Assembly: GCA_019894975.1 (NCBI GenBank) | Contig: JAGXNO010000026.1 | Span: 1-51,944, forward strand | Direction of reading: 5' to 3' | DNA: 51,944 bases | From: Promethearchaeota archaeon | GTDB taxonomy: Archaea; Asgardarchaeota; Lokiarchaeia; Sigyniarchaeales; SOKP01 | In this document: positions 14,406 to 43,862 of the stretch, piece by piece | Layout of the letters: the number at the start of each line of letters is the position of its first letter | Numbering within the stretch: the stretch's first letter is position 1 | The notes under the pieces: model-generated | Databases searched by the model: none | Told to the model about the DNA's origin: nothing | The model's input: only the letters and a program-made list of their open reading frames with translations | Position numbers and translations under genes: made by a program

Positions 14406-15091
14406 AAAAAATCAGTTATTTTTTTATTATGTAAATCTTCAGCTATTATTTTTCTTATTGTAGCCCACGATTTCCTAGCGAAAGGGGGTGATTTTTTTTT
14501 TTCCTTTATCCATATTCGAAGGAAATCGATTGTTCTTCTATCTGAAGGATATCCTGATCCAAAATCCCCAAATTTTTCCTTTAATTCCTCGATTAATGTA
14601 TCTCGTTTATCTTTAGCCACGATTGAGGCTGCAGATACAATTGGAAAGAGATCATCAGCTTTATGTTTTGAAATGAGTTCATCTGGTTTATAGTCTAACC
14701 GTTTTAAAATAGAATCCCTAAACCTATTTTCAATTACATCAACCGCATCAACATAAATAACACTTGGTTTTAATTCTCTGATGATTTCTGCCATTTTTAA
14801 TTCTTCAAGTTCATTTAAAGTGATTTTATTCTCTTCTCTTTGGTCAATTTCTTCGGGTGGGACTACAATAATTTTAAAAGATTCACATCTTTCTACAATT
14901 AACTTTGCCAATTTACTCCTTTTATTAGCATTTAGTTTCTTAGAATCTTTTACTCCGATCTCAGTTAAATAAGGGAGATTTGCTTCTTTAAAACAGACAC
15001 CACAAAGAACCAGAGGACCAATTACGGGACCTTTTAGGATATAATTCGAAATGAATTAAATTCTCCCAGCCTCGTCTATACCACAAATCAC
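14402..15091 (-). CDS. rnhB: ribonuclease HII, split by a 30-nt intron (join of 15091-15063 and 15032-14402; 219 aa)
   Basis: GTG at 15091 gives MICGIDEAGR, then a 30-nt insert with in-frame TAA, then GPVIGPLVLCGV...GVKDSKKL continuing into the track ORF (YVDA, KADD, VSAASIVAK, GSGYPSD, C-terminal PIP box KKITDFF). Confidence 0.93.
15033..15062 (-). other. putative BHB-type mRNA intron (30 nt) in rnhB
   Basis: mRNA: C-UGGG-AG^A-AUUUAAUUC(AUUUC)GAAUUAUAU-CCUA-AA^A-G. UGGG/CCUA 4-bp helix, two 3-nt bulges, intron hairpin; cutting after bulge nt 2 restores GGG AGA GGT (G-R-G). Confidence 0.85.
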
Positions 15092-29406: not shown

Positions 29407-30705
29407 TTACTTTCTATTGTCGAATTTTGTACAAAATTCAGCAATTTCATTAATAAATTCTTTAAGGTTATCAATTTGAGATCCAATAAAGTTGAAAATT
29501 TCTTTTCGATATTGAATGGAATCTCTAATTTTCATTTTATCTAATCCCAAATAATTAGGAAAGCATATAAGTTTCATTAAATAGGGGAGGATTTTCTCAT
29601 TAGTCTGTAAGTCTTTAAATATTGCATAAAAAATATTTTCATCAGATAATTTCCATTTCAAAATACTCATATAAATCAAAAAAGAAAAATTCATAGAAAC
29701 CCAATTTACTAATTCTTTTGATAGAAAACCTCTTCTCTGTGCCGCAAATGCTAAATAATAAGTAATTAGAGTTTCATTACTAAACTGAGGCAAATATCTT
29801 ATGGTTCCATCAGTTTGTGTATTTTCACGAAGAAAATTGTTATCAATTAGAATATCAACAAAATCTTCTTGCGGTGCCAGAAATATTCCATCTATTAACC
29901 GTAAGCCTATCCTTTCGGCTACTTTTTCTATTGCTTCTTCTTCAGCATTCGCAATTGAATCAATATATGGCAAGAATACTTCATTTTTTAAAATCATTGG
30001 AATTTCATAATTTTGTTTTTCAGGAAATTCCCCAAAATTAGGATCTAAGTTATAAAGGGAGGTTATATTGTTGATAATTTGATATATCTTAGGAGAAATA
30101 ACAGGAATTTCAAAAAAATCTGGACTTTCTAATTTTTCTCTATAATATGTATGAGATTGTAATAGATGACGCTGGCATTCATAGAGATTAAGAGAATTAT
30201 CTAATAATTTCTCATATATAATTTTGAGATTTGTCCCTTTTGGAAATATTTTCTCCTCAATGAATTTAACTAGTTGATAAAGATAAGTATTTTCTATATT
30301 GAGCTCATCAGGATTAGTTATATGACGTAATACGTTTAAGGCATCTACAGATTCATGTAAAAATTCTATAATATAATCTTTAATATCAATAATTGGAATT
30401 TCTTCTCTATATTTTATTATAAAATCTTTAATTATATCATATACATTTGACCTATACATAGCAGAGAATTCTGAAAGTGCCCTAACTTTACGAATATTTC
30501 TTTTTTCTTCCTCCTGGCGGATTTTATCAAGAATTTCTGTATCAAGTAGCAAATCAGGATCCAAATCAATAATTATCCTTCTTGTTTCTCTTAAAATTGG
30601 GCGCATATGACTTATAAAAGTTAAATACCTAGGAAGAATATCAGTCCATTTTTCTCTTCTCCTTCCGGATTTTACCATTCTTGTTGATTTCTTTTTGTAA
30701 CTCAT
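29407..30705 (-). CDS. hypothetical protein
   Basis: 432-aa ORF in a tightly packed minus-strand gene run. Confidence 0.8.
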   Translation of the reverse strand: MSYKKKSTRMVKSGRRREKWTDILPRYLTFISHMRPILRETRRIIIDLDPDLLLDTEILDKIRQEEEKRNIRKVRALSEFSAMYRSNVYDIIKDFIIKYREEIPIIDIKDYIIEFLHESVDALNVLRHITNPDELNIENTYLYQLVKFIEEKIFPKGTNLKIIYEKLLDNSLNLYECQRHLLQSHTYYREKLESPDFFEIPVISPKIYQIINNITSLYNLDPNFGEFPEKQNYEIPMILKNEVFLPYIDSIANAEEEAIEKVAERIGLRLIDGIFLAPQEDFVDILIDNNFLRENTQTDGTIRYLPQFSNETLITYYLAFAAQRRGFLSKELVNWVSMNFSFLIYMSILKWKLSDENIFYAIFKDLQTNEKILPYLMKLICFPNYLGLDKMKIRDSIQYRKEIFNFIGSQIDNLKEFINEIAEFCTKFDNRK

Positions 30706-30732
30706 TTTTTAATTATTCAACTCAATCTTATC

Positions 30733-31872
30733 TTATTCCTCATCATATCCTACTAAAATTTCAGTGAAGATGTTAGAAATTTCAACAAATATAGGTATTT
30801 CTACTCTGCATAAATTCCCCAGGATCCATTTATTAACATCTTTAAGGAGAAATTTTATCTGATTATGAATTTTTTTATTGATTTCGGAATCTATTATTTT
30901 TGAGAACCACAAACCCCCTCCTACTCTATATGCTACAATCTTAATGAGTGGTCCAAATAAAGGCTCTAAAACCTGTCTTAACATCCATGATTTTGGAATA
31001 ACACTCATACTCTCGGCTTTAAATGTAGGATCATTTAAAATTGGATTTGTTTCATCAACAGATAATTTGGGCATAAAACTTAATAATAATATTAACGCAA
31101 AAATTGCTGAGATGCCATTAATTGTATATGATCCCCCGATTTTTTCGAGATCATCTCTATAAATAGCAATATTAGCAAGAAACATACACATAAACACGTT
31201 TCTATCAAAATCTTCAGAAATGTAAGCATATCCTAATTCTTCATCAATAACAAGATATTTTTCTTCAAGTATTTTTATTATATCATCGGGAAAAGTATAA
31301 AATGTATATACTTTTTCCTCACTCCTTCTCACATCTTTTTCAATTTTAAGCTCTTTTGAAATGAGTCCAAACATATTCACTAATTCATCAAGTTGCTTCT
31401 GTATATAATGTCGAGGTTTATTCGGGTTACCAAACATTGCGAAAAATTGATGATCAACTATGTGAAAATCATTTCTTTTGCCAAAAGCCTCTACCATTCT
31501 ATCTATTATCGGCCCCTGAGATTCCGAGGCAATAATTTTAGCTTTTGAGGTTACAAATCCATTTAATAATTCATTTATTATGAAATCTTGCTCATGAGTT
31601 CTCGATTTTAAAATAAGTCCAAAGGCTTCAGAAAAACTTTTGGAGTTTGGGAAAAAAGCATTTTGGATTTTTTCATTTATAGATTTTATGAAAATATCTC
31701 CATCATTTTTTGGGAAATGAAGTTTCATATTATTAAGCCTTTGAATAAGTGCTTCTTTAGCACCTGGGATATTTTCAACATCTCTTTTTTGTAATTCTTC
31801 TATTGCGTTTTCGAGTCCGTTTTCAAAATCGCTCATTAACATTTTCCAAGTTGTATCTTGAACTTCTCCCAT
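30733..31872 (-). CDS. hypothetical protein
   Basis: 379-aa ORF in the same gene run. Confidence 0.8.
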   Translation of the reverse strand: MGEVQDTTWKMLMSDFENGLENAIEELQKRDVENIPGAKEALIQRLNNMKLHFPKNDGDIFIKSINEKIQNAFFPNSKSFSEAFGLILKSRTHEQDFIINELLNGFVTSKAKIIASESQGPIIDRMVEAFGKRNDFHIVDHQFFAMFGNPNKPRHYIQKQLDELVNMFGLISKELKIEKDVRRSEEKVYTFYTFPDDIIKILEEKYLVIDEELGYAYISEDFDRNVFMCMFLANIAIYRDDLEKIGGSYTINGISAIFALILLLSFMPKLSVDETNPILNDPTFKAESMSVIPKSWMLRQVLEPLFGPLIKIVAYRVGGGLWFSKIIDSEINKKIHNQIKFLLKDVNKWILGNLCRVEIPIFVEISNIFTEILVGYDEE

Positions 31873-31901
31873 GTTTTTTTCTCAGCTTTTAATAGAATTT
31901 A

Positions 31902-32867
31902 TTAATTAATATCCCAATTTAATTCTGTTGATATTTTTTTTAATGCGTTAATTAAAGGTTTAATTAGCTTTCTATCATAAATATTTGGGGAAGATACACC
32001 TTTTTGGGCTTTCCAGCCCATTTGAGTACCTTCACCCATTTCTCTTTGTCCGTATCTTAAAATGTTACTAAGATCTCGTACCCACCAGTAAAATCTTAAC
32101 CATTTCCTATTTGGATTATCTTTTGAATAGATAACTACTATTGCTTTCCATTCACCCATCAACCATTTTACTGTAACTCCACTTACGGGCAAGTAAAAGT
32201 TTATAGGAAAATTTCCATGAAATCGTAAATCGAGGTCAGTCGATGAAATATTAAAGATTGGTTGATTATATCCTTCTAATATTACTATTTCCCCACAATG
32301 TTGACATTCATAATGGGATTTCATCTTATCCATCTTTTTGCCACATTTTGGACATGTCCTGTTTTCAATAATTCTATATTTGATGATTTCTAAATATTTT
32401 TCTTTTTCTAAATCTTCTTCTGACTTCGGTTCTCTTATTCCATAACTGCCACTCCAATTCCATATATCGTCAAAAGTTTCATCAAAAGTTTCTAAAGAAA
32501 CAATGATATTATTAAGGACTGCTTTATCATAAATTTTAATCATACCTGCGTGCCGTAAATTTTTCCACCAGGATAGTCTTACGTACTTTTCCTCTTTTAA
32601 ATAACCACTATGACAAATTAAAGCAGCAAATAATCGCTCTTCTGTTTTGCTAAGGATTATCCCAGACTCAGCAACTTCATAAGTTTTATTAAGTGACATA
32701 TTAGTATGAAACCACTCTCCATCAACCATGTTTCCAATTAGAAAGTCTTCTTTTTTCGCTTTCTCGTCATCTACACTTTTGGCTTTAATGATTTTCTTAC
32801 AACTTGTGCATTGGAAAATCCCCTCAATCAGCATCTCCATCTCGATATCACATGCAGGACATTTCAT
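31902..32867 (-). CDS. zinc-ribbon protein with an internally duplicated domain
   Basis: CPAC..CTSC and CPKC..CQHC ribbons, each followed by a repeat (YVRLSWWK..IYDKAVL / WLRFYWWV..IYDRKLI). Confidence 0.75.
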   Translation of the reverse strand: MKCPACDIEMEMLIEGIFQCTSCKKIIKAKSVDDEKAKKEDFLIGNMVDGEWFHTNMSLNKTYEVAESGIILSKTEERLFAALICHSGYLKEEKYVRLSWWKNLRHAGMIKIYDKAVLNNIIVSLETFDETFDDIWNWSGSYGIREPKSEEDLEKEKYLEIIKYRIIENRTCPKCGKKMDKMKSHYECQHCGEIVILEGYNQPIFNISSTDLDLRFHGNFPINFYLPVSGVTVKWLMGEWKAIVVIYSKDNPNRKWLRFYWWVRDLSNILRYGQREMGEGTQMGWKAQKGVSSPNIYDRKLIKPLINALKKISTELNWDIN

Positions 32868-33138
32868 ATTTAATATTTACTCACTATGATATTATTAACT
32901 TATCCTAAAATCCACTACCTTATAATATAAGTCTGCTTTAAAAAGAGTTAAAAGACATAATAAAACATTTCAAATAAATTTTTTGGTTTATAATGTTTAG
33001 ATATATTAGGTTATAAAAAAATGTAATACTGATTTTTATCTTTATAAACAATTTATTAGAAATTGAAAACCTTGTCTAATTGTTTGAATAAATAAAAAAT
33101 AATACTCATGTGAATAAGATAGCAACATAGACAATTTA

Positions 33139-36100
33139 TTAGTGATTAATTACTTTATTTAATTCACCATAAAGGTCTTTTCTAATTTTTAATGTGTTTG
33201 TAGGTACAGTTTGAAGATTTGCCAACCCTTCTAATTGTCTTTCTTTATTTTCGGATTCAATAAATTCTAAAAGTCGTGGTCCTAATATTACAGGATTAAA
33301 CTCGATTGCTAAATCCTCACAAAATTCAACACATTTAATGTTAATATTTGCTAATTTAGGAGAATAATTTATAAGTATTTCTTTTAGAAGCATTGCATAT
33401 ACAATTATTTGGGGTAAGCCCTCTTTTATTTTTCGTAAATTCATTTTATAGTCTCCAATTATGAGATCTATTCCATCAAAAAACAAGAGATCTATATGGC
33501 CAGTAACAAATTCCTTAAAAAAAATTTTCCATACTGGTATTTCAGCTGCAACAGCATAAGGATAATCTCTTAAAACTCTACCAAGAATTTTAGGGTGATC
33601 TATAGTTAAATTTGAGGCTTTAACTACTTCACATACCTCGCATAATTGAAAAAATGGAGAATCCGCCTTCGATTTTATAAATTTCAAATTTTCTTTGAAA
33701 AAATTCAAAGTCTTTCTTACACTTATGGGTCTTGCTCTATCTCCTCTTAATTTTAATAACGACGCTCTAGTAAATTCTTCATTATTAAAAATTTTTATAG
33801 GGTGTTTTTTTCCCCTAAAATCCTCAAAAAAATTGAGAAGTGCATTTCGTATAATTGGATTCTCAATATTCAAAATACGATTCTCGAGCCATATAAAATC
33901 AAAGGGGAGGTTATTATCAATTAAGGCTTTTTCTTTCAAATGTAGATAATCATAATAGATATCCGATGCATCATCTTTTCTTTGAGAATTCACTTCCGTA
34001 AAATATTCATCGATAAAAAGTTTAATTTTTGTTATTGTGTCTTTTCGCCTGAAAGATATATGTTCAGCAAGTGATTTTACCAAGAAAGAAGCCTTAGGAT
34101 AGAAGTTTTTAACAAATGCATTTGGTGATAAATCAGTAAGCTTATACAACTTAAGAACTAAATCAGTAGCTAAATGATAGTTATCTTCTAAAATCTGTTC
34201 TAATTCATTTATAAACGTTGTGCGATCATATTGGGTATATGTTTGAAAGTATTTATCATAATCTTCTCCCAAAATCTCGTGAGTTAATCTGGAAGCTGTA
34301 GCATGACTAATGTTATTTTGAACACTCCCTAAACGGACTTCTTCAACTGTAATAGGAGTTTCAATCTCACCATCTTTGATGGCCTTAACTTTTTGTTTTA
34401 GATGTCTTCTAAACTGTTTTACTATAGAACGGGGGATGGGAGAGCTAGTTTCGAGAAGCCATTTATCAGCATCTATTTCAGGAAAAATTTCACCTAAAAG
34501 TGGAATATATTCATTAATATTTCTCCAAACTTGATTATCACTTAGTTTAGTAAGCTCTTTTAAGTCTTCGGTCAGAGAATAATAATCTACACTACTAAGT
34601 AATGCTAAGGATATAACTTGTATTATTCTCAGCACCTGAGTTGAGTGGAAATATCCCGTTCTTTTGATCTCCGTAGAAAATTGAATAATGAAAGATTCTG
34701 AGAGAATTTCTTGGAGTATCCCATCATTGTTCAGACCCTGTTCTTGTAAATCTTCAATAATACTTACGATTTTAGAAATTACATCTTTAATTCGTTTTTC
34801 AAGATCATATATGCATTTTTTACACCCCCAGTGCCTTTGTTGTAATCTATTGCCTGTACTGGCAAATTCTTTATGATTCGGGTTTTGACACCATATCTCC
34901 AATGGAACAAGAGTGGGTGAATATATTTCAGCTAATTCATTGAATTTTTCTTCGGTTTCAGGTTTTTTTATAACACCAGGATGACCAGATTTCTCTATCC
35001 CGACATCTCTAGCTAAATCTTCCGCTTTTTCCAATGAAAATAAAGTGCTTTTATAGAACCATTTATCTACGTTTAAATCAGATTTCACTTGCTTTAAAAG
35101 GGGGATATAATCCCTAATTAATTTAGAGACTTGTGCTGCCTTTAAATTTGTTAAATGTTCTAAAATTTTTTTTAAACAATCATAATCGGGACACTTAAGA
35201 ATCGCTAATCCAATAGTCTGTAAACATCTTGTCGCTTGCATCCATCTGTGCCCCCCTTCATATATTTTTGTGATATTAAAGAGCTCCATCAATGTTGCAT
35301 TATCTAGCACAATTTTAAGAACTTCATTTTCGTCAATGTTATTCTCAGTTAAGAATTGCAAATATTCATCAAAATTATTATTATTTAATAGATCTCTATT
35401 ATCCCCTCCATACAGTGATAAAAGTTCATTCTTGATCCGATTAATAAACGCATTGATCAAATTAATCAATTCTACCTCAGTCAACCTCCGTTCAGCACGA
35501 TCTTTAAAATATTTGAAATGATTTTTAAGTTCTTGCAAATTTTTAAAAGGTAAGTCTGGATTTTTTTTAATCCAGTTTCTAATAGCTAACCCAACTCGCT
35601 GTTTAAGACCTTTTATTGTTTGTTGATCGTTAATTCCTTCAAAAAATGACTTAACCTGAGGGGATTCATTAATAATATTATTTAATGAGGGGATAAACAG
35701 TCCTGTAACAATTTGCTCCTTTTTTAAGTTTAAAAGCCTAATAACTTCGCTATATAGCTTGGGTTCAGGTAAAGCTTGACCGGATTCCTCCAATTCTTCT
35801 AGTTTTTTTTCAGCCCTTGCAATTCTTAATCCTAGCTCCTCACTATCAAATATCGCTTGTAAAATCTCTCGGGAAATTGGAATCTTTGATTTTAATTTAC
35901 TAAATGAAATTTTATCACGCTCTAACTTTCGAAGAAACGATTCAAAGCCCAACACTTTAAAATCATCATATCTTAATCTAGGATTTACAAATAAATATGG
36001 ACCGAATACAAACTTAAAATATTCTACAGTTAATTCATTATCCAACCATTCCCATTTTGAATTTAAAATATTAGGACAAATATTGATACTTGAGAGAAAA

Positions 36101-36819
36101 TCTAATTCTTCCTCATTGAATTCATGTTTTGTCTCAGTCTTAGGCAGATTTTTGAAATTTAATTCAAAAGTTTTCAGATCATCACGTATAACTTCTTCGA
36201 ATCTCGCGAGTTCAGGCTCATCCCAAAGTTCGGTAATTATGATAAACGCTTCACTTATTAGCCAGCGCAAATATAAGACAAAGTCTTGGGAATATTTATT
36301 ATTTACTTTAATTTTTTTTTGTAATACTTTTAACCACTTATCGAATTCTTTCACACGCATGTTATATAAGTTTATTAAAAATTTATCTTTAACATTAACT
36401 CGATGGTCCATAATTGGGTTAATCTTTTCATAGAGATCATCGAGGATTTCTTGGTTTAACTCCAATCCTTCTTTATCTTGAATCGATTCATATTTTAGTG
36501 ATTGTATATGAGGATAAACAAGTCGAGAAACCACAATTTTAAAATCATCTTTAAACCTTATGGGGAAATCAGAGTCATAAAATATTCTTTCTATTGGGCT
36601 CTTTCGGTTTCGGAGCTTTTCATAAACACGTCGGAAAAAGCCGTTTGTTTGATTATTATCATCACTTCTATTATCATCTTCAATGGTTTCATGTGGTTTA
36701 TTGCTAATTTTTACACCACAATTTTGACAGACAATCGAATCATTACTATTTGTAGTGTTTAGAAGTTCTGTTGGAATTTCAGTTCCACAATATCTGCAAG
36801 TTTCTTCCATAGATCTCAA
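33139..36819 (-). CDS. large multidomain protein with zinc ribbons, internal repeat and C-terminal PD-(D/E)xK nuclease
   Basis: N-terminal CRYC...CQNC; internal WCQNPNH...CKKC; C-terminal AEIPVW...GHIDLL...IIGDYK...QIIVYA; likely start ATG 36810. Confidence 0.7.
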   Translation of the reverse strand: MRSMEETCRYCGTEIPTELLNTTNSNDSIVCQNCGVKISNKPHETIEDDNRSDDNNQTNGFFRRVYEKLRNRKSPIERIFYDSDFPIRFKDDFKIVVSRLVYPHIQSLKYESIQDKEGLELNQEILDDLYEKINPIMDHRVNVKDKFLINLYNMRVKEFDKWLKVLQKKIKVNNKYSQDFVLYLRWLISEAFIIITELWDEPELARFEEVIRDDLKTFELNFKNLPKTETKHEFNEEELDFLSSINICPNILNSKWEWLDNELTVEYFKFVFGPYLFVNPRLRYDDFKVLGFESFLRKLERDKISFSKLKSKIPISREILQAIFDSEELGLRIARAEKKLEELEESGQALPEPKLYSEVIRLLNLKKEQIVTGLFIPSLNNIINESPQVKSFFEGINDQQTIKGLKQRVGLAIRNWIKKNPDLPFKNLQELKNHFKYFKDRAERRLTEVELINLINAFINRIKNELLSLYGGDNRDLLNNNNFDEYLQFLTENNIDENEVLKIVLDNATLMELFNITKIYEGGHRWMQATRCLQTIGLAILKCPDYDCLKKILEHLTNLKAAQVSKLIRDYIPLLKQVKSDLNVDKWFYKSTLFSLEKAEDLARDVGIEKSGHPGVIKKPETEEKFNELAEIYSPTLVPLEIWCQNPNHKEFASTGNRLQQRHWGCKKCIYDLEKRIKDVISKIVSIIEDLQEQGLNNDGILQEILSESFIIQFSTEIKRTGYFHSTQVLRIIQVISLALLSSVDYYSLTEDLKELTKLSDNQVWRNINEYIPLLGEIFPEIDADKWLLETSSPIPRSIVKQFRRHLKQKVKAIKDGEIETPITVEEVRLGSVQNNISHATASRLTHEILGEDYDKYFQTYTQYDRTTFINELEQILEDNYHLATDLVLKLYKLTDLSPNAFVKNFYPKASFLVKSLAEHISFRRKDTITKIKLFIDEYFTEVNSQRKDDASDIYYDYLHLKEKALIDNNLPFDFIWLENRILNIENPIIRNALLNFFEDFRGKKHPIKIFNNEEFTRASLLKLRGDRARPISVRKTLNFFKENLKFIKSKADSPFFQLCEVCEVVKASNLTIDHPKILGRVLRDYPYAVAAEIPVWKIFFKEFVTGHIDLLFFDGIDLIIGDYKMNLRKIKEGLPQIIVYAMLLKEILINYSPKLANINIKCVEFCEDLAIEFNPVILGPRLLEFIESENKERQLEGLANLQTVPTNTLKIRKDLYGELNKVINH

Positions 36820-36877
36820 TATAATCCAGAATTATTTAAACAAAAAAAGGGGAATTTTGATTTGCTCTTGTTTGAGT

Positions 36878-37153
36878 TCACCTTTTCAAACGCTTTCTAC
36901 CAAAGTATATCATTTCACAGCAAAAGATCCCTGCTAATATGATTATGCCATATAAGAGAATATCATTTATAGTAATTTGATTATTACTAGAATTAACATC
37001 AGTAATTTCTTCTGCTTCCTCATACTGAAAGATGTAAAGTGTTTTCCATGGAGCACTATTTCCGACTGTATCTTTAGTGCTGACTCTTAAATAATAAGTG
37101 CCGTTAGAAACTGTTGGGGGATCGAAAACGGTGTAAGCTGTAAACGAAATTAA
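36878..37153 (-). pseudogene. C-terminal remnant of a cell-surface protein (Ig-like strand + TM anchor)
   Basis: Start-less frame: ...NGTYYLRVSTKDTVGNS...ILLYGIIILAGIFCCEMIYFGRKRLKR*; in-frame TAG immediately upstream. Confidence 0.6.
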
Positions 37154-37316
37154 CTACCATAGGAGAGTATATTGCATTTAAAAGATTTAAAACTTAGCAC
37201 ATCACATTAATCAAAGATTTGTCAACTTCTAATTTCCAAAATATTAAATAGAGAAAAAAATAAAAATAAATGTACAATTAAGTAAAATTGAAATTCAATA
37301 GATCAAGTTACCTCTG

Positions 37317-39197
37317 ATGATGAAAAGAACTCATAAAGAATTTTTACATGTTCTAATATTTTGTATACTTCTCTTTTCCATCAATCCCTATAAAAATTCA
37401 ATTTTTGTTAATATTGAGGGTAACCTAAGGAATAATGGAAGCTATGAACCATCTGGTTTAATTGCGTTATGGTCCGGACCATTAAATACCATCCCAGATG
37501 GGTGGAAGTTATGTGATGGCAGCGATGGGACGCTAAACATAAGTAATCGGTTTGTCTGCGGTACTGATAATATGGAAGAACCTGGAATCACAGGTGGTAG
37601 TAGTTCACATAACCACAATTATACAACAGTTCCTTACCACGATCATGGCGAAACAGATACCGCAACTTGTAGACATTCTCACAATTGGGATGGACCAGGA
37701 GCCAGACTGCAGGTTATGGAAGGTAACACTGTCGGTCTTTTTAATAATGGTGTCACGGGGTCCGATCCTGCCAATCATTCACATAATGTGGACTATACAG
37801 GTCAAGCTATCTCTTATACGTCTGAAGAGGAAAATATTTTACCCCCTTATTACAAGTTGGTATTTATCGAGAAAGAAAAAAAGGATGCCGTTATACCTAT
37901 TGGGTTGATCACAATGTGGGCAGGAACTATTGAAAATATTCCTGAGGGTTGGGCATTTTGTAATGGATTGAACGGAACACCCGATCTTCGGGAGAAATTC
38001 ATTCGGGGAGTCCTTCCAGGAGAAGATCCTGGATCTTTAGGTGGAAATTTGTCCCATATTCATACATATACAGATATTCCAAATCATACACACTCTCTTT
38101 CTATCGGAGGATATAATCACGTTCATCCAGGCGCATTCGCACATATTCCTCGGTATCTTCATTATGTTGGTCCAGGATCTGTAAGAATTTCTGGCCTTTC
38201 AAGTGCCTCTTACACGGATTATACTGATACACCACATACACATACCATAAACGAAATTGGAATGGAGAATTGCACAACACAACATACCGAACACTTACCT
38301 CCCTATTTCAAGATGGCATTCATAATGAATAAGGAAGTAACAGATGCATTACCAGTGGGATCTATTTCTATGTGGGGAGATTCAATAATGGATATACCTT
38401 CAGGTTGGAACCAATGCAATGGAACGCATAACACTCCTAACATGCTTAACAGATTCCCGAGAGGAATTGCATCTGGAGAACAACCCGGAATTATTGGAGG
38501 ATCGACCACTCATCGTCATATCTATACAGAAGTTCCCTTACACACGCACATTGTTTTCGAGGATCCGATGCGTCATCGTCACTCCATGGTTGGAGTTGCC
38601 ACTCCATGGGTGGAATTCCCTTCAATGCCTTCAATTAGTGGCATTGGTTTTCCAGTCCTTATTCCTAGTCAAGCGAGTTATAGCTCTCAAAGTAACGCCC
38701 CTCATAATCATACTGTAAATCCTACAGGTTCCATGTCTTGCTATACTTCAAATGAAAGCAATCTTCCCCCATTCATTAAACTTGTTTTTATACAAAAAAA
38801 CTTACTCATCTCCAACCCTTCTCCTGCTGATGGGGCTTTTGGTGTTGGAAATAATCCTACATTAAGCGTAGATGCTTTAAAGTTAGAAGGAGATGACTTA
38901 ATCATTACTTTTTATAATGCTTCCGACAATAGTATAATTGAAGCAGATGTTATCTTGGGTGGAAGTGGTACCGCATCAATAACATGGTCCGGACTCTCTT
39001 ATGGTACGAGGCATTCGTGGTATGTAATAGTGGATGATGGTTTGAAAAGTATCCAATTTGAGACATGGTCATTTACGACAAAAAGCCCTGAAAGCTTTCC
39101 ATTCCCATTAATAATTACGATTTCTATGGTAAGCGCTGGAGCGATTGTAGGAGCTACAACGATGATCTGGTTAAAGCGGAGGAGAAAAAGAGCATAG
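37317..39197 (+). CDS. membrane-anchored surface protein with three phage tail-collar/His-rich fibre-like repeats
   Basis: N-terminal hydrophobic signal; three repeats of P.G.I..W.G...IP.GW..C.G..T....RF..G...H.H...LPP...L.FI; C-terminal TM + KRRRKRA. Confidence 0.8.
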   Translation: MMKRTHKEFLHVLIFCILLFSINPYKNSIFVNIEGNLRNNGSYEPSGLIALWSGPLNTIPDGWKLCDGSDGTLNISNRFVCGTDNMEEPGITGGSSSHNHNYTTVPYHDHGETDTATCRHSHNWDGPGARLQVMEGNTVGLFNNGVTGSDPANHSHNVDYTGQAISYTSEEENILPPYYKLVFIEKEKKDAVIPIGLITMWAGTIENIPEGWAFCNGLNGTPDLREKFIRGVLPGEDPGSLGGNLSHIHTYTDIPNHTHSLSIGGYNHVHPGAFAHIPRYLHYVGPGSVRISGLSSASYTDYTDTPHTHTINEIGMENCTTQHTEHLPPYFKMAFIMNKEVTDALPVGSISMWGDSIMDIPSGWNQCNGTHNTPNMLNRFPRGIASGEQPGIIGGSTTHRHIYTEVPLHTHIVFEDPMRHRHSMVGVATPWVEFPSMPSISGIGFPVLIPSQASYSSQSNAPHNHTVNPTGSMSCYTSNESNLPPFIKLVFIQKNLLISNPSPADGAFGVGNNPTLSVDALKLEGDDLIITFYNASDNSIIEADVILGGSGTASITWSGLSYGTRHSWYVIVDDGLKSIQFETWSFTTKSPESFPFPLIITISMVSAGAIVGATTMIWLKRRRKRA

Positions 39198-39471
39198 ATA
39201 TATCTATTAAAAAAGATTTTAAGACGAAATCTGAATGTTAAAGATTAAAACATATCGAGTTGTGTTAACAAATTTATAAACTGTATAGACAGATATACAA
39301 AATTATCACTCCATAGGAGTATTTTAGATCTCATTTATTTGTAACCTCTTGAGTAATTGAGCATGGTATCTTAATGAGGGAAACTTTTTACTCCTCTTTT
39401 TCTTAAATGAACAAATAAAAAACTCATATCCATTATGGAAAGACTAGATTTTGAAATTCAAATACACAAAT

Positions 39472-40572
39472 TTACTCTTCACTGGTAGTTAGTATTAATC
39501 TTTCATAATCTAAATTCAATAATTTTATTTCTTTCTTTGTTAATTCTGAAATTTTATCGTTAATAGTCTTTACCTCTTTTCTAAGATCAACAAGTGTTTG
39601 TTGAATAGTATCTAAAATATCATCTTCATTATAGGTAACCTTCTCAATGAATTCAAGATATTTGAATTTTTTATCCTTACCTGAATAATAACTCTTTAAT
39701 TCTAAGATTTTTTTTTCAATCTGGTTCAATTGGTATCTAGTTTTTAATAGAAAGTTTAATTTGGAGAACCAATTAATAAAAATTGATTCCTCTCTATTTA
39801 TATTGTCGAAATTGAACTTATCAGATAACCCAATGTTTTCATCTTTTATATAGCTTATAACCTCTTTATCTTCTTCAAATGCTACATTTATTTTCTTTAA
39901 AGCTGGTTTTGTATTCAAAATTGGGTCAAAGATCTTTATGTATTCATTGATATCATCCTTTATTTCCTTAAATCTTTGATAAAAACCTTCTATAGTTATC
40001 TCGATTTTAATAACTTGATAGACATTCCCAAATTGATCCAATATATAATATAAATCGTCTGCTAACGTATAATCATGTTCGCCAATTTCATAGATTAATG
40101 AGTGTACAACATTACTCTTTTCACACCTTACACCCTTTATTCTCGTTAACGCTAAATTAAAATTTCTTCTTGTGAGAGATTTAAATTTCTTGTTTATTAT
40201 CAAAAACAAGGTGTCATCTGGAACAGAGATAGTATCTTGTTCAATCGTTATCGTTTCTTCTCCTATCTTTATTATGAAGTCATCCTCTTTCTGTTCAAAC
40301 TCTCTCATACTACGAATATTCTTAATTAATCCTAAATCGATATAAATTTCAATAAACTCTTCATCCCAGAGTTTAACTATATTGCTTTTGTAAATTTCAT
40401 CTAATATTAAAATACGGCTGTAGGATTCAATTAGATTCTCCTCTGCTAAATCCTTAAGTAAATCATTCCTAATAACATACAGGAATAGTAAGATATATCT
40501 TATATCAACATCATTCATGATGTTATCTATTAATTTAGCATCATCTTCTATTGTCAAGGTTTTATGTTCCAT
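39472..40572 (-). CDS. hypothetical protein with C-terminal coiled coil
   Basis: Track ORF 39472..40647; the downstream ATG at 40572 (MEHKTL) looks a more plausible start. Confidence 0.75.
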   Translation of the reverse strand: MEHKTLTIEDDAKLIDNIMNDVDIRYILLFLYVIRNDLLKDLAEENLIESYSRILILDEIYKSNIVKLWDEEFIEIYIDLGLIKNIRSMREFEQKEDDFIIKIGEETITIEQDTISVPDDTLFLIINKKFKSLTRRNFNLALTRIKGVRCEKSNVVHSLIYEIGEHDYTLADDLYYILDQFGNVYQVIKIEITIEGFYQRFKEIKDDINEYIKIFDPILNTKPALKKINVAFEEDKEVISYIKDENIGLSDKFNFDNINREESIFINWFSKLNFLLKTRYQLNQIEKKILELKSYYSGKDKKFKYLEFIEKVTYNEDDILDTIQQTLVDLRKEVKTINDKISELTKKEIKLLNLDYERLILTTSEE

Positions 40573-40783
40573 ACCTAAAATCCACTTACTATTTTTTAAA
40601 CTATGATAACATTTCAGTGAAAAAGAGTACTTGAAGTAATTAACCATTCCTAAAAAATTTTTCTATATTCATCGAAATAATTTAAAAGAAAAGCAAAAAT
40701 TTTTAGTTCTTGTTTCCATTTAATAACATAGAAATTTAGCTTTCATTATTATAAATAATTTCAATTTATTGGTGTTAACTAAT

Positions 40784-41393
40784 ATGGGTCGTCGTAAAAG
40801 GAAACAAGTCTCACCTAAAAGAGTTAAAAGAGTACCTAAAATTTTCACCTGCCCTGAATGATAAAATTAATTCCTAATTTTTCAAGGATTGCGGTGAAAA
40901 GAGTGTTAAGGTTACTGATATTAAGAAGAAAGGTGCTTTTGCTACTGTGAAATGTGGAAATTGTGATTTGACTAAGGTAGTGCTAGTAAATTCTATTTCA
41001 GAACCAGTTGATGCTTTTGGAGACTTTATAGATATTTTTTATGCAGATCAGGAGCTCCAACGGTTAGAGAAGCGAATTCAGAAATTAAAAGATGAAAACG
41101 AATATGGGGAACTTGCATTATCCTACTCAATTTTATCAGATCTATGTAAGGTCAAGGCTGGAATATTACTAGAAGAAGAAGATGTTAATTTGGATGAAGT
41201 GAATGAGTGGAAGATGAGAAATGAGCATTATAAAAACCTTGAAAAGGAGGCATTATTGAAGCTTGAAACTGATGAATTAGAGAGAGGTTTAAAAACTGAT
41301 GAAGAATCATTATTCGCAGAAAGAGATTCCAAGATAAAGAAAGAAAGAAAAATAGAAGATATATTTGATGATCCAGGCTTTTTAGAATTTTAG
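40784..41393 (+). CDS. elf1: transcription elongation factor Elf1 with C-terminal extension, split by a 31-nt intron (join of 40784-40858 and 40890-41393; 192 aa)
   Basis: ATG 40784 (GGTG SD): MGRRKRK...PKIFTCPE, 31-nt insert with TGA TAA, then CGEKSVKV...VKCGNC...SEPVDAFGDFID, the full Elf1 signature. Confidence 0.92.
40859..40889 (+). other. putative BHB-type mRNA intron (31 nt) in elf1
   Basis: Exon-exon stem UUUUCACC-U-GC / GC-GGUGAAAA; central helix CCUG/AAGG (3 pairs + G.A); bulges AA^U and AU^U; intron hairpin AAAAUUA(AUUCC)UAAUUUU; excision gives GAA TGC (CPEC). Confidence 0.85.
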
Positions 41394-41525
41394 ATAAAAT
41401 ACTGTTTCTCTTTATTATTAATTTAAATCATAAAACTATGTAATTCTCTTTCGAAAATAGAATTTAGGAGAATAATTTAATAGTTTTGAAAGAGATTACT
41501 GGAATATTATGTTTGGTTGATCTCC

Positions 41526-41978
41526 TTATCCAGGTTGAGATCTGCGTTTAAAAAGTTCTTTAAGCTCCCCCATTATAGCTCCTCTTAGAGAAACTGGACT
41601 TGCGGGTCTAGCAGGACCAGGACCTCCAGGCGGACCTCCAGGCGGACCTCCGGGTGGTGCTCCGGGTGCAGGGGGAGCGTTTCTAGGAGGGGGTCCAGGC
41701 GGCCCAGGGGGAGCGCCTGCTGCTGAGGGAGCAGAGGTACTTGGAGTTATTCCAGAACCTGACTTTAGAGATCTTATGTCATTATTTACGGAAGTTAATT
41801 GATTTTGCAAATTAGTGACTTTCGAATTGATACCTTGTAAACTATTATCTACGAGGTCTGGTATTTTTAACACAATTTGCATTATCTTTTCAATAACATC
41901 ACCGAATGCATTTAATTTTTCTTCCATTGGTGCTTTTCTTGTACTATCCATAAATGAAGCAAATTCTTCTGCACACAT
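41526..41978 (-). CDS. coiled-coil + polyproline + C-terminal amphipathic helix protein (actin-regulator-like)
   Basis: Heptad N-terminus, PPGPPGPPP/PPGGPP tract, terminal LRGAIMGELKELFKRR. Confidence 0.75.
   Translation of the reverse strand: MCAEEFASFMDSTRKAPMEEKLNAFGDVIEKIMQIVLKIPDLVDNSLQGINSKVTNLQNQLTSVNNDIRSLKSGSGITPSTSAPSAAGAPPGPPGPPPRNAPPAPGAPPGGPPGGPPGGPGPARPASPVSLRGAIMGELKELFKRRSQPG
41620..41651. repeat. 12-bp tandem repeat encoding the PPGG tract
   Basis: GGACCTCCAGGC twice plus GGACCTCC. Confidence 0.85.
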
Positions 41979-42109
41979 TTTTCTATACTTTTTGTAATTT
42001 AAAATCTAATTTTTCTATTAACTATATAGATTTTTATTTAATAAATTTAAGTCTAGGCATAGTAAGGAAAATTTGATAATAAATAGAAAAAAAGAAGATT
42101 GTATTTTTT

Positions 42110-42733
42110 TTAACTTAATTCTGTAATCGTATCTTTTAATTTTAGCCATAAGGCATTTATCTCACTTTTTACCTCTTTATATTGATGGATTTTTTTAAGT
42201 AAAATATCTCGGGCTCTATCGAAATCCCTTTGAACATCATTTAATTCTTGGTCAAGAATATTCAATTTATCACCATCAATTAACTTATTTTTGGCTTTTT
42301 CAGCATCTAAAGCTTTTTTAATAACTACAGCCCTTTTACTTGCAACATCAGATAGAGCATCTATAAATTCATCTTTCTTAGCAACTAGATATTCTTTTTG
42401 AACTGCTAAATCTTTAATTGCATTCAAATATATATTATTACCTTTAATATAATCATCATTTTGTTTGATTATTTCCTGGAACAACTTTACTTCTTCGTCT
42501 TTAATATTCGATCTGTGCTCTCGAGCAAGGGTTTGCATTTGTTTTAAGACGTCTCTAAAAGTCCGATTCAGCATTTCTCTTGTGATATTTGCTTTTGAAA
42601 TGTTTTCAGCATACTTCATTTGGGCACTGATCAGAGAGCTCTGTGCTCTAGACAATTTTTTAAACTGTGAAACAAGCTCCTTCTCTTGTTTGGCTAATTC
42701 TAGTTCATCTTCATGGGTTATGATTGGGCTCAT
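42110..42733 (-). CDS. all-helical coiled-coil protein, BAR-domain-like
   Basis: 207 aa, three long amphipathic helices with a basic patch (SKRAVVIKKALDAEKAKNK) before DKLNILDQEL. Confidence 0.55.
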   Translation of the reverse strand: MSPIITHEDELELAKQEKELVSQFKKLSRAQSSLISAQMKYAENISKANITREMLNRTFRDVLKQMQTLAREHRSNIKDEEVKLFQEIIKQNDDYIKGNNIYLNAIKDLAVQKEYLVAKKDEFIDALSDVASKRAVVIKKALDAEKAKNKLIDGDKLNILDQELNDVQRDFDRARDILLKKIHQYKEVKSEINALWLKLKDTITELS

Positions 42734-42827
42734 CTTAATCTAATCTCTCTATAAATTTTAAAATTCTATGAAATGTATCTTAAAAGAAAACTTACTTTGA
42801 TTTATATAATTTTTTTACTATTTAAGT

Positions 42828-43862
42828 TTATATTGGAAATACTGCCGTTAAAATGTTGTCTCTATAGTTGGCTTTTATGATTCTCACAGCTACCTTCTTC
42901 CCAATAAAATTCTCAGAGGTGATTGAAGGTTCCCTTAGAAGTACTTTTACTCCAAAATTGTTATTGATTTTTCCAATATATTCATTTTTCCAACGACCTT
43001 TAGAGATAATGGTCAGTTTTATGGATTGATTCTTTTTAATATCTAATGATGCAACATTTTTCCGTTTATGAATATTGAAATCTCTTGGTCCAAGTTTTAG
43101 CTTAATCTTGTATTTTTTTTCTAATCTGGTTAATTGTTTATAGAAGTAATCCCAGGTTTTAGGTCTGATTTTTTTTAATTTTCTTCCTGTCTTATAAATT
43201 AGGTATTTTTGGATTCCAAGTTGAAGTTTTTTTTCAGAATACCCTTGTTCTCTTAAATTAATTACGAACTTAATAATATCTTCGATATCTTGATCATTTT
43301 CTCCTGGAAACCATACTGGGGCTATTAACACGTTAATTTTCGTGTTTATAAGGATATTTAAACTTTTTACAAGGGTATCTATATTAAAACTCTCTGAATT
43401 GCTTAAATAACTTGATTTTTCTTGATCTAATGAATTTAGACTAATATTGATACGAGTGAGTCCTACATTTTCAAGTTGTTTAATTGTTTCGTGCTTTAGA
43501 AGCATACCGTTAGATTGCATAGAAATAGTTTCGATTCCATCTATTTTCCATAGATTTTCAATTAATTCTATAAGTTTAGGATAGAGTAAAATTTCTCCGT
43601 ATGGAGCGATGTGGATTTCAATATTATCCCTTCCTTTTATTTTTATAATTTCGTCTACTTTTTCGATTAGGTAATCTGGATCGACCATAAAATTGTTAGT
43701 ATAATCTCCAGCTCTTACAAAACAATATTTGCATTTTAGATTACACAATGTTAAGGGTTTTAACTCTATAACATTTGTACCTCGATCAATTACTCCTATA
43801 TAATCTATTCCATATAGGGGAATTCCCGATTGTTTATTTACATGGATTAGTTCGGTTTTCAT
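42828..43862 (-). CDS. radical SAM protein (archaeal COG2100-like)
   Basis: GVIDRGTNVIE, CNLKCKYCFV, ISMQSNG, RINISL, LIAPVW.PGEND. Confidence 0.88.
   Translation of the reverse strand: MKTELIHVNKQSGIPLYGIDYIGVIDRGTNVIELKPLTLCNLKCKYCFVRAGDYTNNFMVDPDYLIEKVDEIIKIKGRDNIEIHIAPYGEILLYPKLIELIENLWKIDGIETISMQSNGMLLKHETIKQLENVGLTRINISLNSLDQEKSSYLSNSESFNIDTLVKSLNILINTKINVLIAPVWFPGENDQDIEDIIKFVINLREQGYSEKKLQLGIQKYLIYKTGRKLKKIRPKTWDYFYKQLTRLEKKYKIKLKLGPRDFNIHKRKNVASLDIKKNQSIKLTIISKGRWKNEYIGKINNNFGVKVLLREPSITSENFIGKKVAVRIIKANYRDNILTAVFPI

What the first reader, a model, noticed from the sequence alone, without database searches (positions are those of the whole stretch)
40842..40900. 31-nt intron in the first zinc knuckle (CPE|C) of Elf1, clamped by an exon-exon stem
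TGC CCT GAA [TGATAAAATTAATTCCTAATTTTTCAAGGAT] TGC GGT GAA AAG. The insert begins TGA TAA and shifts the frame by 1, so readthrough cannot rescue it; only removal of 31 nt restores FTCPECG. The coding flanks TTTTCACC-T-GC and GC-GGTGAAAA form a 10-bp stem that positions two 3-nt bulges around a CCUG/AAGG helix with one G.A mismatch. The coding sequence thus appears to double as the splice signal.
Basis: partly seen in the sequence, partly recalled or inferred. Interest (0 to 1): 0.92.

Follow-up and report, generated by a model that had tools for sequence, protein, structure and literature searches.

The report
tRNA-type mini-intron in Asgard elf1
The gene for transcription elongation factor Elf1 of a Loki-type Asgard archaeon is broken by a 31-base insert with the shape that the tRNA-splicing enzyme cuts, kept with compensating changes in 35 related gene variants, so the message very probably has to be spliced, something documented in print for only one other archaeal coding sequence (cbf5).

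Summary
Observation confirmed. elf1 (40784-41393) of a Promethearchaeota genome carries a 31-nt insert (40859-40889) between Cys23 and Cys26. The standard bulge-helix-bulge (BHB) cut rule removes exactly these bases and yields an intact 192-aa Elf1. 35 of 82 distinct orthologues carry a 28-32-nt insert at the same codon boundary, with varied sequence but the same fold (8 pairs with two-sided changes; the Pro codon's third base co-varies with its intron partner). The synonymous-codon exon stem is kept in intron-bearing genes and weaker in intronless ones. The genes are under purifying selection (dN/dS about 0.06). The genome has a two-subunit EndA with the relaxed-substrate loop, RtcB, and at least six more such inserts, including rnhB and its only EF-1alpha gene. 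Splicing itself is NOT shown: joined contigs occur in RNA runs, but come from relatives, and intronless alleles exist as DNA. It works like, and meets the testable criteria of, the cbf5-type pre-mRNA intron; the gene, lineage, number per genome and turnover are new. I found nothing in print on Asgard mRNA introns; this scan has noted the same elf1 intron in other genomes several times.

The parts
40784..40858 (+). elf1 exon 1 (Met1-Glu25, includes first zinc ligand Cys23)
   Evidence: PRK14892 positions 1-26, E 1.4e-4
40842..40852 (+). 5' arm of exon-exon stem (8 pairs, bulged U, 2 pairs), made of Ile-Phe-Thr-Cys codons
   Evidence: helix 1 is 95.9% paired in 32 distinct alignment rows; synonymous constraint
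40853..40856 (+). exon strand of the 4-bp central helix (Pro codon plus first base of Glu)
   Evidence: column pair 15/46 is A-U 25, U-A 4, G-C 3, never unpaired
40857..40859 (+). 5' three-base bulge; predicted cut between 40858 and 40859
   Evidence: cut rule from PMC2738675
40859..40889 (+). 31-nt BHB-type intron: inner hairpin 40860-40883 (9 pairs, 5-nt loop 40870-40874), intron strand of central helix 40884-40887; two in-frame stops at its start
40888..40890 (+). 3' three-base bulge; predicted cut between 40889 and 40890
40891..40900 (+). 3' arm of exon-exon stem (Cys-Gly-Glu-Lys codons)
40890..41393 (+). elf1 exon 2 (Cys26 to stop; Cys47/Cys50 knuckle and an acidic C-terminal extension of about 110 aa)
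   Evidence: PF05129 E 1.5e-8; PRK14892 27-93; open to full length in all intron-bearing orthologues whose contig reaches the end
15033..15062 (-). second intron of the same kind in this window, 30 nt, in the DEAGR-GP motif of rnhB (RNase HII)
   Evidence: TIGR00729 from position 10 for exon 2; insert in 29 of 30 genus loci, central helix 4/4 in 22 and 3/4 in 6

Best explanation
A tRNA-type (bulge-helix-bulge) intron in the elf1 mRNA. The transcript folds so that the last codons of exon 1 pair with the first codons of exon 2 (10-bp stem) and with the end of the intron (4-bp central helix, one mismatch), leaving two 3-nt bulges. The two-subunit splicing endonuclease EndA cuts after the second base of each bulge, RtcB joins the exons, and the joined message (a hairpin with a 7-nt loop, the geometry of a tRNA anticodon arm) codes for 192-aa Elf1 with its first CxxC knuckle restored. 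Unspliced message gives a 25-aa peptide, so Elf1 synthesis depends on splicing. Shown: sequence, frame restoration, conserved fold with covariation, codon constraint, purifying selection, presence of the enzymes. Inferred: cleavage by EndA, ligation by RtcB, production of the protein. The intron is most likely a tolerated resident with no dedicated function: it is present and absent in close sister genes (16 changes of state on a 78-row tree), and any regulatory role is untested.
For: Cut rule and frame restoration coincide. Same position in 35 of 82 distinct orthologues, lengths 28 (1), 30 (9), 31 (19), 32 (6), each breaking the frame or carrying an in-frame stop. Structure over 32 distinct rows: 92% of cells paired, 8 pairs with two-sided change, covariation 0.286 against at most 0.073 for slid registers, 0/500 shuffles. 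Central helix 4/4 in 7, 3/4 in 27, 2/4 in 1, the mismatch moving between positions. Exon stem tracks intron state. dN/dS 0.062 in intron-bearing versus 0.052 in intronless genes. In eight intron-bearing congeners the interrupted gene is the only Elf1 match. EndA alpha with Tyr/His/Lys catalytic residues and the crenarchaeal-type loop, plus a beta subunit; such enzymes cut relaxed motifs and are the Asgard type (PMC5829648); RtcB present. Same architecture in rnhB, EF-1alpha (only copy in the bin, two in-frame stops), cdhC, a UXS-type dehydratase, a BcrAD/BadFG activase and a CobA, with profile positions contiguous or nearly so across each insert where both exons hit.
Against: No spliced RNA from an intron-bearing genome was shown. 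Joined contigs in RNA runs (X2 skips 40858 to 40890; X6, X7) differ from the window by about 10% and match intron-bearing and intronless relatives about equally. A 14.5-kb DNA contig carries the joined form with the full stem, so a joined contig is not proof. For this allele the MFE is a slipped conformer whose literal cutting would remove 32 nt. The bin also holds an intronless elf1 on C171, though that contig is a co-binned congener (75-78% identical, syntenic). No run laid showed the insert itself, so raw-read support for this allele was not obtained.
Confidence: 0.9

Rival explanations
1. Translational bypassing (T4 gene 60 or mitochondrial byp type, from my own knowledge): the ribosome takes off at Glu25, slides over the hairpin and lands before Cys26, with no RNA cutting.
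For: A stop follows the take-off codon in all 19 CPE/CPD-type inserts; take-off and landing codons are identical in 15 of 35; a hairpin follows.
Against: No matched landing codon in 20 of 35, including this allele (GAA versus GAT); no stop directly after take-off in the 16 CPN-type inserts. Bypassing does not need an exon-exon stem or a 4-bp helix between exon and insert end, yet both are conserved and co-vary. In rnhB, the activase and CobA the BHB register splits a codon.
Confidence: 0.03
2. The BHB is cut by EndA but the exons are rarely joined: a decay or silencing element (as for yeast TSEN on mRNAs), Elf1 being dispensable in these lineages.
For: EndA-family enzymes can start mRNA decay without ligation in yeast (PMC10485636). 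One RNA contig identical to exon 1 ends at 40858, which may be a graph artefact.
Against: Both exons are under strong purifying selection in intron-bearing genes; the cut sites restore the frame exactly for four different insert lengths; the same design sits in the only EF-1alpha gene.
Confidence: 0.03
3. Pseudogene created by insertion of a small hairpin element, the function being supplied by the intronless copy on C171.
For: The bin holds a second, intact elf1; presence is patchy on the tree.
Against: C171 is a 6.4-kb syntenic contig at 75-78% identity, consistent with the bin's 8.55% contamination; no decay in 35 insert-bearing genes; single copy in other insert-bearing genomes; compensatory changes inside the insert.
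Confidence: 0.03
4. Assembly or sequencing artefact.
For: Metagenome-assembled genome; no reads of this allele were inspected.
Against: Same site, divergent sequences, in 35 distinct genes from many studies.
Confidence: 0.01

Closest known systems
BHB intron in the cbf5 pre-mRNA of Crenarchaeota (Desulfurococcales, Sulfolobales; Watanabe 2002, Yoshinari 2006, Yokobori 2009 PMC2738675)
   Same: Short intron (16-44 nt there, 28-32 nt here) inside a coding sequence at an essential motif; relaxed BHB; cuts between second and third bulge base; two-subunit EndA; lineage-specific precise loss.
   Different: Different gene and phylum (Asgard). cbf5 splicing is shown by cDNA and in vitro cleavage; here it is inferred. 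cbf5 is one gene with one gain and about two losses; here at least seven genes in one genome and 16 changes of state in elf1 alone. The cbf5 intron splits the catalytic Asp codon; this one lies between codons.
5' UTR BHB intron of Haloferax volcanii HVO_1309 (PMC7714728; PMC10485636)
   Same: mRNA substrate of the tRNA splicing endonuclease.
   Different: Lies in an untranslated region, so the protein does not depend on exact joining; homodimeric enzyme.
Archaeal tRNA introns, including the many non-canonical ones of Asgard archaea (bioRxiv 10.64898/2026.10.13.758758)
   Same: Same motif, partly built from exon sequence; repeated gains; this genome's own tRNA genes carry hairpin inserts of similar size and look; the joined elf1 RNA folds as a stem with a 7-nt loop like an anticodon arm.
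   Different: Host is an mRNA, so the exon half of the motif has to be written in synonymous codons. That preprint has no occurrence of 'mRNA', 'cbf5' or 'Elf1' and says none of its inserts has been shown spliced.
HAC1/XBP1 non-spliceosomal mRNA splicing of eukaryotes (own knowledge; RtcB link in reference titles)
   Same: Short frame-shifting intron removed from a transcription-factor mRNA by an endonuclease and a tRNA ligase.
   Different: Cut by Ire1 at two separate stem-loops, not a BHB; stress-regulated. No evidence of homology or of regulation here.

Membership tests
Archaeal BHB (EndA-type) pre-mRNA intron, cbf5 kind | Short intervening sequence interrupting an otherwise intact, conserved coding sequence | tested here: met
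Archaeal BHB (EndA-type) pre-mRNA intron, cbf5 kind | Two 3-nt bulges on opposite strands around a 4-bp helix, strict or relaxed, with outer helices | tested here: met
   Relaxed here (3 of 4 pairs); 34 of 35 orthologues have at least 3 of 4; covariation
Archaeal BHB (EndA-type) pre-mRNA intron, cbf5 kind | Cuts after the second base of each bulge coincide with the borders that restore the protein | tested here: met
   holds for 28-, 30-, 31- and 32-nt inserts
Archaeal BHB (EndA-type) pre-mRNA intron, cbf5 kind | Host encodes a hetero-oligomeric EndA able to cut relaxed motifs, and a ligase | tested here: met
   alpha with catalytic residues and L1/CSL-like loop aligned to crenarchaeal alpha subunit chain 3p1z_B, E 1e-34; beta; RtcB. 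Presence only; activity untested.
Archaeal BHB (EndA-type) pre-mRNA intron, cbf5 kind | Spliced mRNA detected from an intron-bearing gene | tested here: inconclusive
   Joined contigs in RNA runs cannot be assigned to intron-bearing genomes; joined form also exists as DNA
Archaeal BHB (EndA-type) pre-mRNA intron, cbf5 kind | Cleavage by EndA in vitro at the predicted bonds | not testable with these tools
   needs an assay
Group I / group II self-splicing introns and other curated RNA families | Ribozyme core of some hundreds of bases; Rfam match | tested here: not met
   31 nt; no Rfam match at E up to 1 in 40500-41500
Translational bypass element (gene 60 / byp) | Matched take-off and landing codons with a stop or unused codon after take-off | tested here: not met
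   matched in 15 of 35, not in this allele; no stop after take-off in 16 of 35
Elf1 (PF05129, PRK14892) | Basic N-terminus plus two CxxC zinc knuckles | tested here: met
   after joining; intronless orthologues at 80-90% identity score above the Pfam cut-off

The most novel reading that the evidence does not exclude
Loki-type Asgard archaea routinely splice protein-coding messages with the tRNA machinery: a population of about 30-nt BHB introns that keeps entering and leaving conserved motifs of housekeeping genes (elf1, rnhB, EF-1alpha, cdhC and others), each entry recruiting synonymous codons as splice signal. Split protein genes would then be an ordinary feature of this lineage close to eukaryotes, with ongoing intron gain (the EF-1alpha insert is in 1 of 30 congeners).
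Probability: 0.8. Interest if true: 0.85.

Novelty: new variant of a known kind. Interest (0 to 1): 0.74.

Why it matters
Reviews to 2023 list only two archaeal mRNAs spliced this way, cbf5 and a Haloferax 5' UTR (PMC10485636, PMC7714728), and my eight searches on archaeal or Asgard introns found no report for Asgard protein genes (the library lacks most subscription papers). If these inserts are spliced, (1) the closest prokaryotic relatives of eukaryotes have intron-split protein genes with coupled transcription and translation to manage, a natural test case for how nuclease-and-ligase mRNA splicing and intron spread work without a nucleus; (2) gene callers truncate or miss core genes (the tool's ORF here starts at Cys47's upstream codon and lacks the first knuckle), which biases completeness and gene-content claims for Asgard genomes; (3) with 35 intron-bearing and 47 intronless variants of one small gene, gain, loss and splice-signal constraint on codons can be measured directly.

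Tried and rejected
RNA evidence: only assembled contigs were served. X2 joins 40858 to 40890, X7 and X6 and X1 also show the joined form, none shows the insert. X2's upstream 30 bases are identical to intron-bearing L010/L099 but its neighbouring contig fits intronless L063 best; X6's downstream 30 bases equal intron-bearing L044 but differ by one from intronless L026/L055. Rejected as proof. An X7 contig identical to exon 1 ends at 40858, but it is a fold-back chimera and may mark a graph branch; not used. A metagenome scan for the joined junction found one 14.5-kb DNA contig, an intronless allele with the full stem. First script used a start one base off, so its list of open deletions is void (corrected); one search skipped 14 minus-strand loci (corrected). 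A structure-only genome scan gave 4,824 candidates and is non-specific; even the filtered scan (2,776) needs homology to confirm, ranks elf1 only 125th, and missed purA, cdhD, gyrB and histone cases noted by others, so seven genes is a floor and not a census. Horizontal transfer of intron plus flanks: junction divergence is higher in mixed sister pairs (0.132 versus 0.071 elsewhere; L075/L078 p 8e-5, L028/L062 p 0.008), but relaxed constraint after loss explains this too; left open. I first read the C131 candidate as a GGGtGRT protein from memory; Pfam shows cdhC. Rfam: nothing. The sigma-70 promoter scan does not suit archaea and was at chance level.

Full report
Host and gene. Relatives of the gene lie in Promethearchaeota (Lokiarchaeia) assemblies; the bin has 3.93 Mb, 31.6% G+C, 95.4% completeness and 8.55% contamination. 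The gene starts at ATG 40784. Exon 1 (40784-40858) matches positions 1-26 of the Elf1 model PRK14892 and exon 2 (40890-41393) positions 27-93. Between them lie 31 bases that begin with two stop codons and shift the frame by one. Removing them gives 192 aa with both CxxC knuckles. A plain ORF list finds only a 148-aa fragment starting at 40947.

Fold. The 59 bases 40842-40900 form an exon-exon stem of 10 Watson-Crick pairs, a central helix of three pairs and one G.A, two 3-nt bulges and a 9-pair inner hairpin. Cutting between the second and third base of each bulge, the rule for archaeal splicing endonuclease substrates (PMC2738675), removes exactly 40859-40889. Shuffling the insert reproduces both helices in 34 of 200,000 trials, and recoding the flanks by the genome's codon usage gives the 10-pair stem in 0.035%.

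Orthologues. Of 103 loci parsed, 82 are distinct and 35 have an insert at the same codon boundary, 28 to 32 nt long. The 30-nt ones keep the frame but carry an in-frame TAA; the rest shift it. Interrupted forms were seen only within the window's family among 151 genomes of the class, judged by split or stop-containing Pfam matches. On the alignment, 92% of cells pair, 8 pairs show changes on both sides, and the covariation score is 0.286 against 0.055-0.073 for slid registers (related sequences inflate the shuffle control, the slide control is the fairer one). The most telling pair joins exon and intron: the third base of the Pro codon and its partner in the intron are A-U in 25, U-A in 4 and G-C in 3 rows, never unpaired. 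The central helix has 4 pairs in 7 genes, 3 in 27 and 2 in one, with the mismatch at position 1, 2 or 4 in different lineages.

Coding sequence as splice signal. In CPE/CPD-type genes the Phe, Thr, Gly and Glu codons are single, stem-forming codons in 19 of 19 intron-bearing genes and mixed in 29 intronless ones; mean exon duplex energy -10.0 versus -5.4 kcal/mol; in CPN/CPS-type genes -6.5 versus -3.1. Because kin are not independent I used a tree built without the junction columns: in 9 independent pairs on well-supported branches the stronger stem goes with the intron 6 times, never the other way, 3 ties (p about 0.03). Sister genes that both have the intron differ less at the junction than elsewhere (0.023 versus 0.047).

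Not a dead gene. dN/dS over exon 2 is 0.062 among intron-bearing and 0.052 among intronless genes, and exon 2 is open to its normal end in every intron-bearing gene whose contig reaches it. Eight intron-bearing congeners (G001, G003, G009, G025, G026, G030, G031, G036) show one Elf1 match only. The intronless elf1 on C171 of this bin lies on a 6.4-kb contig that is syntenic with the window at 75-78% identity and groups with another species on the tree, so it is best read as contamination.

Machinery. The genome has two EndA paralogues: an alpha subunit whose best solved relatives are crenarchaeal, with the catalytic Tyr, His and Lys and the extra loop aligned (E 1e-34), and a beta-like subunit lacking the His. 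Asgard archaea are reported to have this two-subunit type with the L1 loop that allows relaxed motifs (PMC5829648). RtcB is present. Several tRNA genes of the bin carry hairpin inserts of similar size.

More than one gene. rnhB in this window has a 30-nt insert (15033-15062, minus strand) found in 29 of 30 genus loci, with a 4/4 central helix in 22 and 3/4 in 6 (lead from e1-5590369). My own scan of the bin gave 30-31-nt BHB inserts in EF-1alpha (profile 1-97 then 98 on), cdhC (1-148 then 151), a UXS-type dehydratase (1-143 then 146), a BcrAD/BadFG activase (1-135 then 137) and a CobA (exon 2 from position 14). The EF-1alpha gene is the only copy in the bin, its insert has two in-frame stops, and it is absent from 29 congeners, which points to a recent gain in an essential gene.

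Turnover. The elf1 intron changes state at least 16 times on the 78-row gene tree. Intron sequences resemble each other within clades that also hold intronless genes, which fits inheritance with repeated precise loss; some intronless genes keep the stem codons (L063, L091, L208). L062 and L078 are intron-bearing genes nested among intronless ones with altered junction codons, which fits gain with a short flank, but this is not separated from other readings.

RNA. Only contigs were available. An RNA-library contig skips exactly 40859-40889, and others show the joined form, but all come from relatives about 10% away and could be intronless alleles; the joined form with the window's own junction codons also exists in a 14.5-kb DNA contig. 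Splicing of elf1 is thus inferred, not shown.

Comparison with print. The closest case is the crenarchaeal cbf5 intron (16-44 nt, relaxed BHB, hetero-oligomeric EndA, secondary losses; PMC2738675). A 2020 paper calls cbf5 the only earlier example and adds a Haloferax 5' UTR intron (PMC7714728); a 2023 review lists these two and expects more (PMC10485636). An October 2026 preprint on Asgard tRNA introns does not mention mRNA introns. My searches found no report of Asgard mRNA introns. This scan's own notes hold the same elf1 intron in several other genomes and many similar cases, some with claimed RNA support; I did not check those RNA claims and do not count them as evidence.

Verdict. Real feature; intron spliced by EndA and RtcB at 0.9. 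The mechanism is a known kind; gene, lineage, number per genome and turnover are not described in the papers I could search.

Noticed in passing
window 15033-15062 (-): 30-nt BHB insert in rnhB, present in 29 of 30 genus loci with a co-varying 4-bp central helix; L165 lacks the usual register, L150 is intronless.
   Followed up: yes
L172 (G000:C107 21215-21244, -): 30-nt BHB insert with two in-frame stops in the only EF-1alpha gene of the bin; absent from 29 congeners, so probably a recent gain.
   Followed up: yes
L173 (G000:C164 24143-24173), L174 (C22 42270-42299), L175 (C131 19358-19387, -), L176 (C115 6328-6357, -): 30-31-nt BHB inserts in a UXS-type dehydratase, a BcrAD/BadFG activase, cdhC and CobA; profile positions continue across the insert. 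Not checked in relatives.
   Followed up: partly
L177 (G000:C120 110770-110799, -): 30-nt insert with a 4/4 central helix in a gene without an NCBIfam family; unconfirmed candidate.
   Followed up: partly
window 41040-41393 (+): Elf1 of this family has an acidic C-terminal extension of about 110 aa (192 aa against about 80 aa in other families of the class), conserved at 70-90% identity.
   Followed up: no
window 40890-41374, run X1: A contig differs from the window at about 10 places in the first 123 bases of exon 2 but at most 3 in the next 360, and neighbours joined-form contigs: possibly the same species with an intronless patch from recombination, or a chimeric contig.
   Followed up: partly
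G000:C171 (6.4 kb): Syntenic duplicate of window 30444-43009 at 75-78% identity with an intronless elf1: co-binned congener.
   Followed up: yes
window 41526-41978 (-): 150-aa protein with a coiled-coil start, a proline-rich stretch and a short C-terminal helix that recalls actin-regulator (WH2-like) layouts; resemblance from memory only, Pfam gave no such hit.
   Followed up: no
G000 tRNA genes: Several tRNA genes carry roughly 20-30-nt hairpin inserts at non-canonical positions that look like the mRNA inserts (A+U-rich stem, 5-nt loop); ARAGORN misplaces them.
   Followed up: no
L073, L035, L040, L047, L057 and others: Record titles name other taxa (Hodarchaeota, Odinarchaeota, Thorarchaeota, one actinobacterium) although the genes fall among Promethearchaeota sequences; the labels are probably wrong, so they were not used to widen the range.
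   Followed up: partly
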